Translations under genes and position numbers: made by a program
Source of the DNA: Escherichia coli
GTDB lineage: Bacteria > Pseudomonadota > Gammaproteobacteria > Enterobacterales > Enterobacteriaceae
Assembly (NCBI RefSeq): GCF_016026235.1
Contig: NZ_CP065613.1
Reading direction: 5' to 3' (one strand)
DNA: 64,000 nt
Notes under the pieces: generated by a model
What the model saw: only the letters and a program-made list of their open reading frames with translations
Told to the model about the DNA's origin: nothing
Database searches by the model: none
Part shown: in pieces, positions 54,447-62,042 of the stretch
Position numbering within the stretch: the first letter of the stretch is position 1
Layout of the letters: each line of letters starts with the position of its first letter

Positions 54447-54480
54447 AAAAAAGGCACCGGGGGAATCGGTGCCTTTTTAT
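54447..54480. terminator. bidirectional terminator between convergent yafE and mltD
   Basis: AAAAAA-GGCACCG-GGGGAAT-CGGTGCC-TTTTTAT. Confidence 0.6.
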
Positions 54481-57961: not shown

Positions 57962-58693
57962 ATGAGCACTGCAATTACACGCCAGATCGTTCTCGATACC
58001 GAAACCACCGGTATGAACCAGATTGGTGCGCACTATGAAGGCCACAAGATCATTGAGATTGGTGCCGTTGAAGTGGTGAACCGTCGCCTGACGGGCAATA
58101 ACTTCCATGTTTATCTCAAACCCGATCGGCTGGTGGATCCGGAAGCCTTTGGCGTACATGGTATTGCCGATGAATTTTTGCTCGATAAGCCCACGTTTGC
58201 CGAAGTAGCCGATGAGTTCATGGACTATATCCGCGGCGCGGAGTTGGTGATCCATAACGCAGCGTTCGATATCGGCTTTATGGACTACGAGTTCTCGTTG
58301 CTTAAGCGCGATATTCCGAAGACCAATACCTTCTGTAAGGTCACCGATAGCCTTGCGGTGGCGAGGAAAATGTTTCCTGGTAAGCGCAACAGCCTCGATG
58401 CGTTATGTGCCCGCTACGAAATAGATAACAGTAAACGAACGCTACACGGGGCATTACTCGATGCCCAGATCCTTGCGGAAGTTTATCTGGCGATGACCGG
58501 TGGTCAAACGTCGATGGCTTTTGCGATGGAAGGAGAGACACAACAGCAACAAGGTGAAGCAACAATTCAGCGCATTGTACGTCAGGCAAGTAAGTTACGC
58601 GTTGTTTTTGCGACAGATGAAGAGCTTGCAGCACATGAAGCCCGTCTTGATCTGGTGCAGAAGAAAGGCGGAAGCTGCCTCTGGCGAGCATAA
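57962..58693 (+). CDS. dnaQ: DNA polymerase III epsilon subunit (3'-5' proofreading exonuclease)
   Basis: ORF-track frame 57953..58693 trimmed to ATG at 57962 ([39 protein letters not shown]...), 243 aa. Confidence 0.93.
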
Positions 58694-58768
58694 ATACCTG
58701 TGAAAGGCGCTAAAAATAGCGACTTGGGCGATTTTTGCAGCAAACGATTCAAAAGATGAGAAAAACCA

Positions 58769-58797
58769 TTGACGACGGGTGAGGCAATCCGTAATAT
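58769..58797 (+). promoter_or_regulatory. candidate aspV promoter (-35 TTGACG, 17-bp spacer, -10 TAATAT, GC-rich discriminator)
   Basis: TTGACG at 58769..58774 and TAATAT at 58792..58797, about 28 bp upstream of the tRNA 5' end. Confidence 0.5.
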
Positions 58798-58825
58798 TCG
58801 CCTCGTTCCCAACGGAACACAACGC

Positions 58826-58902
58826 GGAGCGGTAGTTCAGTCGGTTAGAATACCTGCCTGTCACGCAGGGGGTCGCGGGTTCGAGTCCCGTCCGTTCCGC
58901 CA
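58826..58902 (+). tRNA. aspV: tRNA-Asp (GTC)
   Basis: 77-nt sequence identical to the aspU copy at 50602..50678; lies directly after dnaQ. Confidence 0.95.
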
Positions 58903-58932
58903 AATTCACCTCATGAAAATGAGGTTCAGAGA

Positions 58933-58962
58933 ACCGCAAGATTTTTAATTTTGCGGTTTTTT
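58933..58962 (+). terminator. rho-independent terminator after aspV
   Basis: ACCGCAA-loop-TTGCGGT followed by TTTTTT; preceded by a 7-bp GAAA tetraloop hairpin (ACCTCAT-GAAA-ATGAGGT, 58907..58924). Confidence 0.6.
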
Positions 58963-59260
58963 GCATTTAAATCCCGCTATTTCTTCGGTCTATGATTTTG
59001 TTATGCTGTAAATGTGTTAATCACATATGGTAGACCATATCATTAATATTTAATCATACTATCGAATCATTCAATTTAAATATATTTGCATGTTATGATT
59101 TTCATTTTTCTATTGATTTAATGAATTTATATTTGCTGTTATTTTTGTTTGTTCTGATTCAAGTGGAGTATATAATTAAAAATCGTTAGCTAAACATTAC
59201 CATGATTATGACAGGCGAGGGAGTGTCCGATTATGAATTTAAGAAGGGTTTGTTGTATAT

Positions 59261-59845
59261 GTGTATTATTCTCGCTGCTTGCAGGATGTGCCTCTTAATT
59301 CTCCCGTTATACTTGTTCAGTCTGGCAGTCGCGCACCGGAAACCATTATGCAGGAGGAGATGAGAAAATATTATACAGTTGCCACATTTTCTGGCATTCC
59401 TGACAGGCAAAAACCTGTAACTTGTAATAAAGACAAAAACAAAGATGAAAGTCTGGATGTTGTAGATGCCGAAAATATGAACTGGATGCAGGCATTACGT
59501 TTTGTTGCGGCAAAAGGCCATCAGAAAGCGATTATTGTTTTCCAGGATACGTTGCAGACAGGAAAATATGACTCTGGATTGAAATCAATAGTTTGGTCAG
59601 ATTATAAAAATCAAAAATTGACTGACACGATGTCACTGCGTTATTTGGTTCGATTCACGCTGGTGGATGTGGCTACAGGTGAGTGGGCTACCTGGTCGCC
59701 TGTGAATTATGAATCGAAAGTGATTTTTCCGCAGATAGGGAATAAAAATTCTGACAGCCTTGATGTGGCAGAACAGCAGATTTCACAACTTAAGCAGAAA
59801 ACGTACGCAGCAGTGGTTAAAGATCTGGTGAATCGCTATCAGTAG
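59261..59845 (+). CDS. yafT: YafT-like protein body ORF; lipoprotein signal peptide lies upstream in a different frame
   Basis: 194-codon ORF (...[55 protein letters not shown]...); upstream ATG at 59233 encodes [21 protein letters not shown] then TAA at 59296 in a different frame. Internal ATGs at 59348 and 59360, the latter just after AGGAGG. Confidence 0.5.
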
Positions 59846-60186
59846 TAAGGTTTTATACCAGACGTTTTAATGGTACTTAGCAAGAAAGAGCATTTTCTTT
59901 TCTATTTATACTCTGGTTCAAGTCTGCTAATTAATTTTACATATATATTTTTTTAGAAGTAGTAAAAAACTTTACTAAAGTTATTTATTGTTCTCTCAAC
60001 ATATAAGCTGTAGTTCGAGTTTTCGGTTGAACTGTCAAAAATACATCATACACATCTATAAAACAGCAGGTACGGTTAATTAAGAATTTTTATTCGTGAT
60101 TAACCGTACTTTATCATTTTATTTTATAATGTTAAATTGCCTTTTTAAAATATAACAATAATGCAGATGAAAAACTCCCAGGTAAC

Positions 60187-60666
60187 TTAGAAAATCCGTT
60201 CACTCCAAAGGCTGTACGCACTGGTTCCGGCGACGCTGTGCTCCCAGTTAATGCTCTCATAGGTAAATGACACAGACTCTTCCGGCTGTCCTGGGCTGTC
60301 GTTAATGGTATGGGGAACGGTAAGGCCGATGTTTGAGATCCGGGCGTTAGTCAGTTTCACCTTGTAGTACGGTTCATTAACACCAAAGCGGTTGGTGCGA
60401 TAGAATACAAAATCACAGGTCAGACATTCATTCTCCGAAATGGCCTTGCCCAGCAGGGGGGAAGATTTGTCCACCGGTTTCGTGATGGTCAGCTCCTGGT
60501 GGTTGACATTCTGCGCCCGGCTCAGACCATGGGACAGTGACGTCACCATGATCTGATCCTGATGTGCAATCTGGGCTTTGTTACCGATGGACGGCATTGA
60601 CGAGCATCCGGATGAAATCAGCCCCTGAAGTTCTCCGTTCAGTGTCAGATAGACGGGATTTGCCAT
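60187..60666 (-). CDS. hcp: type VI secretion tube protein, Hcp family
   Basis: ORF-track frame 60187..61053 trimmed to ATG (complement 60664..60666) preceded by AAGGAGAATAAC; 159 aa MANPVYLTLNGELQGLISSGCSSMPSIGNKAQIAHQDQIMVTSLSHGL...YKVKLTNARISNIG...FTYESINWEHSVAGTSAYSLWSERIF, Hcp-like length and N/C-terminal pattern. Confidence 0.65.
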   Translation of the reverse strand: MANPVYLTLNGELQGLISSGCSSMPSIGNKAQIAHQDQIMVTSLSHGLSRAQNVNHQELTITKPVDKSSPLLGKAISENECLTCDFVFYRTNRFGVNEPYYKVKLTNARISNIGLTVPHTINDSPGQPEESVSFTYESINWEHSVAGTSAYSLWSERIF

Positions 60667-60683
60667 TGTTATTCTCCTTAAAC

Positions 60684-62042
60684 TCAATGGGTCGGAGGGA
60701 CTGGCACGGTGCTGTTGTCCGTTGCCATATCCTGTCCGGTATTTTTCAGCAACAGCCAGCGGCTTAACAGCCCATCCAGCCGTTGGTTGATCTCTTTTGC
60801 TAGCGCCTGTGTGTCCTGATTCTGCGTGCGGGTCTCCTGGTACTGCGTCAGCAGGTACTCCAGTGGAGTTTCCTGATTCAGTAACCGTTCGGCCTGCCAG
60901 GTCACCGTTTTGATATACGAGAGGGTGAAACCCTGTTTCTCCGTCTCCTTTTTCATCATCAGATCCGCAAAATCCCGCAAATTCTGCCGCGCCTGTTGCC
61001 AGCCCTTCATCTGCGGACTGGCTTGCGCCCGGTTTCTCAGCGTGGTGCTCCACATCCGGCTGGCTTCCTGCTGTTGCAGGCTTTCCGGCCAGAGGGTGTC
61101 TGCGGTGCGCATCATCTGCATTCCGGTTTCCAGCGGCTGTAGCGGTGGGGTATCCAGAAGCTGTTGCAGGTACTGTTCATATTCTTTCAGTACCGGTGAT
61201 GCCAGCCAGACGGTGGCGGCTCCCTGTGCGGTATCCCTGACCTGCGTAAGCTGCCGCTGCATCGGGTACGCCTGCCACCACCAGAGTGCAGCGGCGATAA
61301 CGGCAGTACAGGCGGCACCGGCAACAAAACCTTTTACAGTGCTGCCCTGTCTAACGTTGTCGGCGTTATTTGCCACACCGCGCACCTCCACCCGCATTTC
61401 CGGCAGGTCGGGCAGGGGAGGCACGGCTTCCGCTGTGGTGGAAGCCGTGCTTTCCGGCGCATAGACCAGCGTCCGGACCGTGGTCTGTGCCGCCGTATCA
61501 GTACGGTTTCCGGGCTGCGGTTCAAACCGCTTGCGTGTGTTCTGCACAAAATAAAGCAGGTTTTCCACGCGCGGCTGGCGCTTCAGTTCCACCTGCTGGA
61601 GTTTGTCACAGATAAGCTGTAAAGCCCGTTCCGTGCGGTAGAGCAACGGCAGATCATTTTCGGAAAAGGACACCTGCTGGCGCAGGATATTCCCGGTGCG
61701 GGTATTGAACCAGTCCAGCATCTCAGTCCGCGCCGGGCCACCCTGCGGCCAGAATTTATCCCATTCGTGGTTGATCATCGCTGCCAGCAGTTCCGCGCCT
61801 TCGCAGAACCCTGCCAGTCCCTGATTACGGGTACGCGCCAGTGTATAGTAGGTGGCGGTATGCAAATCCACCCCGTTGGCCTTAAAAATCGACAGCGCCA
61901 GCGATTCCACCAGTTTCCAGTTCAGCTCCGGCTGTGACGGGTGATTAGCCTTGTTAATTTCTTCGCGGATGGCGCTGAACTCCGGCAGGGCGCGCGGATC
62001 GCTGCCGGTAACGATAGTTTGAGTCAGTGCGTTGTTGTTCAT
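60684..62042 (-). CDS. T6SS-associated ImpA-N-domain protein (TssA-family, VasL/TagA-like) with central transmembrane segment
   Basis: ORF-track frame 60684..62183 trimmed to ATG at 62042 (MNNNALTQTIVTGSDPRALPEFSAIREEINKANHPSQPELNWKLVESLALSIFKANGVDLHTATYYTLARTRNQGLAGFCEGAELLAAMINHEWDKFWP...); hydrophobic stretch GFVAGAACTAVIAAALWWW; 10 bp after the tssM stop, 17 bp before hcp. Confidence 0.55.
   Translation of the reverse strand: MNNNALTQTIVTGSDPRALPEFSAIREEINKANHPSQPELNWKLVESLALSIFKANGVDLHTATYYTLARTRNQGLAGFCEGAELLAAMINHEWDKFWPQGGPARTEMLDWFNTRTGNILRQQVSFSENDLPLLYRTERALQLICDKLQQVELKRQPRVENLLYFVQNTRKRFEPQPGNRTDTAAQTTVRTLVYAPESTASTTAEAVPPLPDLPEMRVEVRGVANNADNVRQGSTVKGFVAGAACTAVIAAALWWWQAYPMQRQLTQVRDTAQGAATVWLASPVLKEYEQYLQQLLDTPPLQPLETGMQMMRTADTLWPESLQQQEASRMWSTTLRNRAQASPQMKGWQQARQNLRDFADLMMKKETEKQGFTLSYIKTVTWQAERLLNQETPLEYLLTQYQETRTQNQDTQALAKEINQRLDGLLSRWLLLKNTGQDMATDNSTVPVPPTH

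What the first reader, a model, noticed from the sequence alone, without database searches (positions are those of the whole stretch)
60070..60109. Perfect 11-bp inverted repeat in the convergent yafT-hcp spacer
GTACGGTTAAT-N18-ATTAACCGTAC is followed on the plus strand by a T-rich tract. It could be a bidirectional terminator closing the hcp operon and yafT, or a dimeric protein-binding palindrome; the 18-nt spacer is long for a simple terminator loop.
Basis: seen in the sequence. Interest (0 to 1): 0.25.

Follow-up and report, generated by a model that had tools for sequence, protein, structure and literature searches.

The report
Conserved terminator-like hairpin after hcp
The reported inverted repeat is real and is the outer stem of a stable, conserved 40-base hairpin between the converging yafT and hcp genes of an E. 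coli type VI secretion island; it is most likely an ordinary, rather weak transcription-end signal and nothing unusual.

Summary
The "18-nt spacer" is not a loop. It pairs with itself (GAAT-TTTT-ATTC), so the element is a 40-nt hairpin with a 4-nt loop. Predicted energy is -18.6 kcal/mol on the + strand and -14.4 on the - strand (z about -6.6 to -6.8). It is the only strong structure in the 341-bp, 27% GC spacer between yafT (+) and hcp (-), the last gene of the known E. coli "T6SS2"/aspV island. It occurs once per genome in 579 of 5426 complete E. coli genomes, and the 49-nt core is identical in 575 of them. It varies far less than the rest of the spacer (1/40 versus 71/304 variable columns). 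The single change in E. whittamii turns U·G into C-G. As an intrinsic terminator it is marginal on the + strand (score +5.7, against 40-50 for canonical terminators in this window). On the hcp strand it is non-canonical, with six non-U bases before UUUU. It matches no Rfam family, is not a repeat family, and resembles no supported operator. Best reading: a transcript 3'-end hairpin at a convergent junction. No transcript data were available.

The parts
60070..60109 (.). 40-nt imperfect palindrome forming the hairpin. On + strand RNA it has 13 outer pairs (11 Watson-Crick, then U60081·G60098 and A60082-U60097), a 1x1 internal loop (A60083/G60096), 4 inner pairs and a UUUU loop. On - strand RNA it has 11 + 4 pairs with a 3x3 internal loop and an AAAA loop.
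60070..60080 (.). Left arm of the perfect 11-bp inverted repeat, GTACGGTTAAT
60099..60109 (.). Right arm of the perfect 11-bp inverted repeat, ATTAACCGTAC
60084..60095 (.). Inner stem GAAT / ATTC around the 4-nt loop TTTT (60088-60091).
60110..60125 (+). T-rich tail directly after the stem on the + strand (TTTATCATTTTATTTT), tail score 4.28. It is weakened in B2-type strains (TTTGTCATTTTATCCT).
60055..60069 (-). Sequence after the stem on the - strand (CUGCUGUUUUAUAGA). The four-U run (complement of the A run at 60060-63, within ATAAAA 60058-63) starts only 6 nt after the stem. It mirrors TTTTAT at 60117-60122.
   Evidence: 31-nt arms at 77% in L009
59846..60186 (.). 341-bp AT-rich (26.7% GC) convergent spacer with no annotated feature in RefSeq genomes. 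Homology to K-12-type loci stops at the yafT stop codon, so the spacer travels with the hcp/T6SS side.
60187..60666 (-). hcp (159 aa), the terminal gene of the minus-strand tssM-vasL-hcp operon. Its stop codon lies 77 nt upstream of the hairpin.
59233..59845 (+). yafT lipoprotein gene, disrupted in this window by a deletion of about 173 nt. Its stop codon lies 224 nt upstream of the hairpin.

Best explanation
The inverted repeat is the outer stem of a single 40-nt hairpin that marks transcript 3' ends at the convergent yafT/hcp junction of the E. coli T6SS2 (aspV) island. On the + strand it behaves like a weak intrinsic terminator: a 17-pair AU-rich stem directly followed by UUUAUCAUUUUAUUUU. 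There it would stop read-through from yafT or from spurious promoters in the AT-rich spacer before it runs antisense into hcp. On the - strand it forms about 77 nt after the hcp stop. The U-run there is offset by 6 nt, so the hairpin more likely acts as a pause or collision point and as a 3'-end protective stem for the hcp-terminal operon mRNA than as an efficient stand-alone terminator. Shown here: existence, predicted stability, uniqueness in the spacer, position, conservation, and single-copy status. Inferred: that RNA polymerase actually terminates there, and which strand matters.
For: The hairpin is stable on both strands (-18.6 and -14.4 kcal/mol, z -6.6 and -6.8). It is the only 50-nt window in the spacer folding below -9 kcal/mol. 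The loop is 4 nt, not 18. The + strand tail passes the simple 5-T-in-8 rule, and the d'Aubenton-Carafa-type score is +5.7. The genes converge on it: hcp is the last gene of a minus-strand operon and yafT is on the plus strand. It is single copy and always at this locus in 579 genomes, and the 49-nt core is identical in 575. It has 1 of 40 variable columns against 71 of 304 in the rest of the spacer, Fisher p = 6e-4. The only substitution in E. whittamii converts U·G to C-G, keeping and strengthening the pair. Relatives with different spacers (K-12, E. coli E50, Kluyvera, S. enterica salamae) also carry a hairpin in the hcp-side/yafT convergent spacer, of unrelated GC-rich sequence. The position is conserved although the sequence is not. 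Published single-molecule work reports that a nascent-RNA stem-loop positions RNAP collisions that terminate convergent gene pairs (bioRxiv 10.1101/2022.10.23.513370).
Against: The terminator score is marginal, about rank 39 of 267 candidates in the window, where canonical terminators score 34-50. The stem is AU-rich (30% GC) and unusually long. On the hcp strand the tail CUGCUGUUUU fails the tail threshold. In most strains (B2 type) the + strand T-tract is further interrupted. yafT is 224 nt away, and in this window it is a pseudogene. Loop and internal-loop bases are as invariant as the stem, so conservation does not distinguish RNA structure from DNA sequence recognition. There is no true compensatory double change. 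No transcript 3'-end data were found.
Confidence: 0.58

Rival explanations
1. It is the terminator of a separate, unannotated small + strand transcript (sRNA) encoded in the conserved block 60013-60125. Transcription would start from a weak promoter (TTGAAC at 60027-32, 16 nt, then TACACA / TATACA / TATAAA in different lineages) and end at the hairpin.
For: The block 60013-60125 is the best-conserved part of the spacer (7/58 and 1/40 variable columns against 50/168 further left). G·U pairs favour the + strand: -18.6 versus -14.4 kcal/mol. The T-tract abuts the stem only on the + strand.
Against: The promoter scan finds no + strand promoter upstream of the hairpin in the spacer. The hand-picked -10 lacks the conserved final T. 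The predicted RNA would be little more than the hairpin (about 65 nt). The U-tail is interrupted, which is poor for Hfq-type sRNAs. There is no Rfam match.
Confidence: 0.1
2. It is a DNA-level protein-binding palindrome, such as an operator or nucleoid-protein site that regulates hcp/T6SS2 or marks the island end.
For: All 40 bp are conserved, including the unpaired loop bases. The palindrome extends weakly to about 31-nt arms. The same 11-mer arms occur as palindromes in two Pseudomonas genomes.
Against: There is no second copy in the window or in any E. coli genome. It lies at the 3' ends of both genes, not at a promoter. The arm centres are 29 bp apart, about 2.8 helical turns, so the half-sites face different sides. 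The inner ARG-box-like core matches at chance level (16 hits versus 8.7 +/- 3.7). The Pseudomonas cases have other loops and flanks and also sit in convergent spacers, which fits unrelated terminator hairpins. The E. whittamii change improves pairing rather than preserving sequence.
Confidence: 0.08
3. It is a functionless palindrome in horizontally acquired AT-rich DNA, possibly a remnant of a decayed cargo gene region between hcp and yafT, and its conservation reflects recent common descent.
For: Only about 4 independent lineages are available. The slot between hcp and yafT holds variable cargo genes in relatives. One clinical strain (MS20645) tolerates a 3-nt change that breaks three pairs.
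Against: The hairpin is significantly less variable than the adjacent spacer in the same lineages (p = 6e-4). Long palindromes are normally unstable rather than preserved (general knowledge). It is retained in O145 strains that lost almost the whole T6SS.
Confidence: 0.14

Closest known systems
Rho-independent (intrinsic) terminators of E. coli, including bidirectional terminators between convergent genes
   Same: A stable stem-loop with a 4-nt loop lies in a convergent intergenic spacer, downstream of the stops of both genes. A T-rich tract follows on one strand. An A-run/T-run pair (ATAAAA ... TTTTAT) flanks the stem. It is single copy.
   Different: The stem is long (17 pairs over 40 nt) and AU-rich (30% GC) with an internal loop. 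The U-tracts are interrupted on the + strand and offset by 6 nt on the - strand. The discriminant score is far below the canonical bidirectional terminators in the same window, for example 54453-54473, 13691-13727 and 9198-9213.
3'-UTR stabiliser hairpins (REP-type or other stem-loops that block 3'-5' exonucleases)
   Same: A stable hairpin sits a short distance (77 nt) after the last gene of an operon, with no good U-tract on that strand.
   Different: It is not a member of the REP/BIME repeat families: there is one copy per genome and no REP consensus.
The GC-rich hairpin CTGCCGCC...GGCGGCAG next to the yafT stop in K-12, E. coli E50 and Kluyvera
   Same: The position is the same in kind: the convergent spacer between yafT and the gene on the hcp side.
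   Different: The sequence is unrelated. That hairpin is GC-rich, short (9-10 bp) and 12-17 nt from the yafT stop. The window's hairpin is 224 nt from yafT and nearer to hcp.

Membership tests
Intrinsic (Rho-independent) terminator, + strand | Stable stem-loop with a short (3-8 nt) loop | tested here: met
   -18.6 kcal/mol, 17 pairs, UUUU loop, z -6.6. The stem is AU-rich and bulged, so the simple scanner missed it.
Intrinsic (Rho-independent) terminator, + strand | U-rich tract of about 7-9 nt immediately 3' of the stem | tested here: inconclusive
   UUUAUCAUUUUAUUUU has 5 U in the first 8 and a tail score of 4.28. The combined discriminant is +5.7, just above zero, against 34-50 for canonical sites. 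The tract is weaker in B2-type strains.
Intrinsic (Rho-independent) terminator, + strand | Lies downstream of a co-oriented gene or transcript | tested here: met
   yafT ends at 59845, 224 nt upstream, with no other strong structure in between.
Intrinsic (Rho-independent) terminator, - strand (hcp operon) | U-rich tract immediately 3' of the stem | tested here: not met
   The tail is CUGCUGUUUUAUAGA and scores below the 3.0 threshold. The U-run starts 6 nt after the stem.
Intrinsic terminator (either strand) | Mapped RNA 3' ends and factor-independent termination in vitro | not testable with these tools
   No transcript data were found in the literature searched.
Bidirectional terminator of a convergent gene pair | Symmetric hairpin flanked by an A-tract upstream and a U-tract downstream, between convergent genes | tested here: inconclusive
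   The convergent context is met. ATAAAA (60058-63) and TTTTAT (60117-22) are symmetric but lie 6-7 nt from the stem.
REP / BIME / ERIC-type repeated extragenic palindromes | Many copies per genome | tested here: not met
   Exactly 1 place per genome in 579 genomes and none in the other 4847. There is no second copy in the window.
Any curated RNA family (Rfam 15) | Covariance-model match | tested here: not met
   Only tRNA-Asp matched in 58500-61200 at E <= 1.
ArgR operator (ARG box) | Match to TNTGAATWWWWATTCANW, normally as a tandem pair | tested here: not met
   There is a single 3-mismatch match at 60081-60098. Such matches are at chance level in the window (16 versus 8.7 +/- 3.7), and there is no partner box.

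The most novel reading that the evidence does not exclude
The fully invariant 40-bp core (a weak palindrome of up to about 66 bp) is not mainly a terminator. It would instead be a sequence-specific element: either the gene for a very small + strand RNA, or a binding site for a T6SS2-linked or nucleoid protein that controls expression of the hcp end of the island from its 3' side. The conservation of the unpaired bases and the recurrence of the same half-site as palindromes in Pseudomonas leave this open.
Probability: 0.1. Interest if true: 0.4.

Novelty: new member of a known kind. Interest (0 to 1): 0.15.

Why it matters
The wider importance is small. It would add a missing annotation, the transcript end of the T6SS2 operon and of yafT, to a pathogenicity-island locus carried by many B2/ExPEC E. 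coli. It also gives a natural example of an AU-rich, low-scoring hairpin at a convergent junction. Such a site could be used to test whether RNAP collisions rescue weak terminators. It does not open a new question.

Tried and rejected
- **Repeat family (REP/BIME/MITE):** rejected. There is one copy per genome.
- **Rfam families:** no match.
- **Island boundary or att site:** rejected. Homology with K-12-type loci breaks at the yafT stop codon (59848), 220 nt from the hairpin.
- **ArgR box:** at chance level.
- **dif/cer XerCD site:** TAATGTTAAAT at 60127-37 resembles a XerD arm, but the XerC arm position matches 2 of 11. Rejected by reading the sequence.
- **Integron attC:** the GTT...AAC order is the reverse of R''/R'. 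Rejected by reading the sequence.
- **CRP site:** the right half matches 2 of 5. Rejected.
- **Small ORFs in the spacer:** 59870-59956 (+), 59988-60083 (+) and 59985-60053 (-) have no Shine-Dalgarno sequence. Their frames or starts are not conserved in UTI89 or E. whittamii.
- **Covariation test:** not possible.
  - The genome-collection scan for the palindrome found only E. whittamii, an E. coli-like 'Citrobacter' MAG, and two unrelated Pseudomonas palindromes.
  - The metagenome scan anchored on the upstream conserved block gave 23 contigs with an invariant hairpin. The one exception is a 1-nt insertion in a contig at 1.4x coverage.
- **Hcp orthologues at 81-86% identity in other genera:** they have non-homologous spacers.
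- **Literature search for transcript maps of this locus:** nothing usable.

Full report
**Observation**

The sequence at 60070-60109 reads GTACGGTTAAT-TAAGAATTTTTATTCGTG-ATTAACCGTAC, followed on the + strand by TTTATCATTTTATTTTATAAT. The arms, coordinates and T-rich tract are as reported.

The window carries rnhA, dnaQ and tRNA-Asp (58826-58902). Next comes a yafT-family lipoprotein gene on the + strand ending at 59845. A 341-bp spacer follows, and then hcp on the - strand (60187-60666), preceded by vasL and tssM. This is the published E. coli "T6SS2" island next to tRNA-Asp/aspV: GI-16 of IMT5155 (PMC4232414) and PAI I of LF82 (PMC2941450).

**Anatomy**

The 18 nt between the arms are not a loop. 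They contain GAAT-TTTT-ATTC, so the repeat finder reports 18-nt arms at 89% complementarity with 4 nt between them.

| Strand | Pairs | Internal loop | Loop | 40-mer energy | z-score |
|---|---|---|---|---|---|
| + | 13 outer + 4 inner | 1x1 | UUUU | -18.6 kcal/mol | -6.6 |
| - | 11 outer + 4 inner | 3x3 | AAAA | -14.4 kcal/mol | -6.8 |

With flanks, the + strand folds at -21.4 kcal/mol. The + strand is more stable because U60081·G60098 becomes an A·C mismatch on the other strand. As single-stranded DNA the energies are -11.4 and -9.9 kcal/mol.

In sliding 50-nt windows, nothing else in the spacer folds better than about -8 kcal/mol on either strand. The spacer is 26.7% GC, against 51% for the window.

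**Chance**

Perfect 11-bp inverted repeats with 3-30 nt gaps occur at four places in the window. Shuffles give 0.5 +/- 0.9. One or more appears in 33% of window shuffles and in 1.3% of shuffles of the spacer alone. The bare repeat is therefore modestly unusual. The extended hairpin and its conservation are what make it a real feature.

**Distribution and conservation**

- The spacer occurs once per genome in 579 of 5426 complete E. coli genomes. It is always chromosomal and never annotated.
- The two main lineages differ by about 7% across the spacer. The 49-nt core 60064-60112 is nonetheless identical in 575 of 579 genomes.
- One strain (MS20645) has GAT to TTA, which breaks three pairs.
- Across four lineages (window type, UTI89 type, CFSAN061770 type, E. 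whittamii) the hairpin has 1 variable column in 40. The rest of the spacer has 71 in 304 (one-sided Fisher p = 6e-4).
- The single change, T60081 to C in E. whittamii, turns U·G into C-G.
- A metagenome scan anchored on the conserved block upstream returned 23 contigs. All had the same hairpin, apart from one likely sequencing error.
- No double compensatory change exists, so RNA structure and DNA sequence constraint cannot be separated by comparison.

**Where it belongs**

In about 3500 other E. coli genomes (K-12 type), homology with this region stops at the yafT stop codon (query position 549 = window 59848). The whole spacer therefore travels with the hcp side.

O145 strains that have deleted nearly all of T6SS2 still keep yafT, the spacer, hcp and a vasL fragment.

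**Terminator test**

I scored every hairpin-plus-tail candidate in the window on both strands, using a d'Aubenton-Carafa-type discriminant with ViennaRNA energies. The formula is recalled from the literature and the energies are modern, so only the ranking within the window is meaningful.

- Canonical terminators score 34-50. Several are bidirectional: 54453-54473, 13691-13727 and 9198-9213.
- The + strand version of this hairpin scores +5.7, about rank 39 of 267.
- The - strand version does not reach the tail threshold. The stem is followed by CUGCUG before UUUU.
- The simple scanner missed the site because of the internal mismatch.
- An A-run and a T-run flank the stem symmetrically (ATAAAA at 60058-63, TTTTAT at 60117-22) but lie 6-7 nt away. 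In E. whittamii the palindrome extends to 31-nt arms at 77%.

**Positional analogues**

Close Hcp orthologues (81-86% identity) in S. enterica subsp. salamae, Kluyvera and Superficieibacter keep the order vasL-hcp-(variable gene)-yafT, with yafT convergent. So does E. coli E50, which carries a more divergent hcp (about 73% DNA identity) at another locus.

Their spacers are not homologous to this one. Several still hold a hairpin in the convergent spacer:
- CTGCCGCC...GGCGGCAG, 12-17 nt after the yafT stop, in K-12, E50 and Kluyvera.
- GCCACCGA...TCGGTGGC in S. salamae.

A hairpin at this junction is thus a recurrent feature of unrelated sequence. That is what one expects of transcript-end signals.

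**Interpretation**

The most economical reading is a transcript 3'-end hairpin at a convergent junction.

- On the + strand it would be a weak intrinsic terminator. It would protect hcp from antisense read-through out of yafT or the AT-rich spacer.
- On the - strand it would act as a pause or collision point, or as an exonuclease-blocking stem for the hcp-terminal operon. It is unlikely to be an efficient stand-alone terminator there.

Single-molecule work reports that a nascent stem-loop is needed to position the RNAP collisions that terminate convergent gene pairs (bioRxiv 10.1101/2022.10.23.513370). That offers a way for a weak site to work in this setting. This last step is inference, and no 3'-end data for this locus were found.

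**Rivals**

- **Separate small + strand RNA.** This is suggested by the conserved block 60013-60125 and the + strand bias of G·U pairs. There is no credible promoter and no Rfam match.
- **Protein-binding palindrome.** This is unsupported. The element is a single copy at gene 3' ends, the arm centres are 29 bp apart, and the ARG-box resemblance is at chance level.
- **The Pseudomonas palindromes.** Two Pseudomonas palindromes with the same 11-mer arms have different loops and flanks and also sit in convergent spacers. By my rough estimate, a few such coincidences are expected among terminator-like hairpins in 298 Gb.
- **Neutral relic.** This is disfavoured by the conservation contrast.

**Verdict**

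This is a real, conserved and so far unannotated hairpin of an ordinary kind. Interest is low.

Noticed in passing
window 59233-59300 (yafT 5' part): yafT is disrupted in this window. Compared with the 786-bp CDS of O145 and UTI89, about 173 nt are missing between two copies of TGTGCCTCT. As a result the lipoprotein signal-peptide frame starting at ATG 59233 hits TAA at 59296-98, and only the ORF 59261-59845 remains.
   Followed up: partly
L013, L016, L018, L011 (loci around Hcp orthologues): A YafT-family gene (PF25851) is the convergent neighbour of the terminal hcp of this T6SS type in S. enterica salamae, Kluyvera and Superficieibacter, and in E. coli E50 at a non-aspV locus. A variable gene slot lies between hcp and yafT (a 301-aa unknown, an AcrVA2-like protein of 214-276 aa, or a 99-aa protein). 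yafT therefore looks like part of the T6SS module rather than a core-genome flank, and the window's AT-rich spacer occupies the cargo slot.
   Followed up: partly
L012 1753-1781; L011 1938-1965; L016 2579-2604: K-12, E. coli E50 and Kluyvera share a GC-rich hairpin CTGCCGCC...GGCGGCAG 12-17 nt after the yafT stop. It is absent from the window's lineage.
   Followed up: no
L008 2005-2038; L010 7789-7842: Pseudomonas sp. 2FG and P. mediterranea carry palindromes with the same GTACGGTTAAT arms and a 12-nt gap. The arms extend to 14 nt and 22 nt respectively, and both lie in convergent intergenic spacers. This is probably coincidence, but the shared extra bases (GTACGGTTAATCAC matches the E. coli - strand arm) are curious.
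   Followed up: partly
L001 3342-4026 (E. coli O145 RM9872): O145 strains have lost almost all of T6SS2. Only yafT, the spacer, hcp and a 153-bp vasL fragment remain, directly next to yafV.
   Followed up: no
window 61421-61450: A perfect 13-bp inverted repeat with a 4-nt loop (GCACGGCTTCCGC TGTG GTGGAAGCCGTGC, -24.8 kcal/mol) lies inside the vasL coding region on the antisense (+) strand.
   Followed up: no
L015 2500-2700 (GCA_000397385.1): This draft assembly shows several short tandem duplications in the hcp 3' region, including a duplicated half of the hairpin. They are probably assembly or sequencing artefacts.
   Followed up: no
L028 (metagenome contig ERZ786681): This natural variant has lost one TTTTA unit of the + strand T-tail (TATTTTATTTTATAAT becomes TATTTTATAAT) while the hairpin stays intact.
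   Followed up: no
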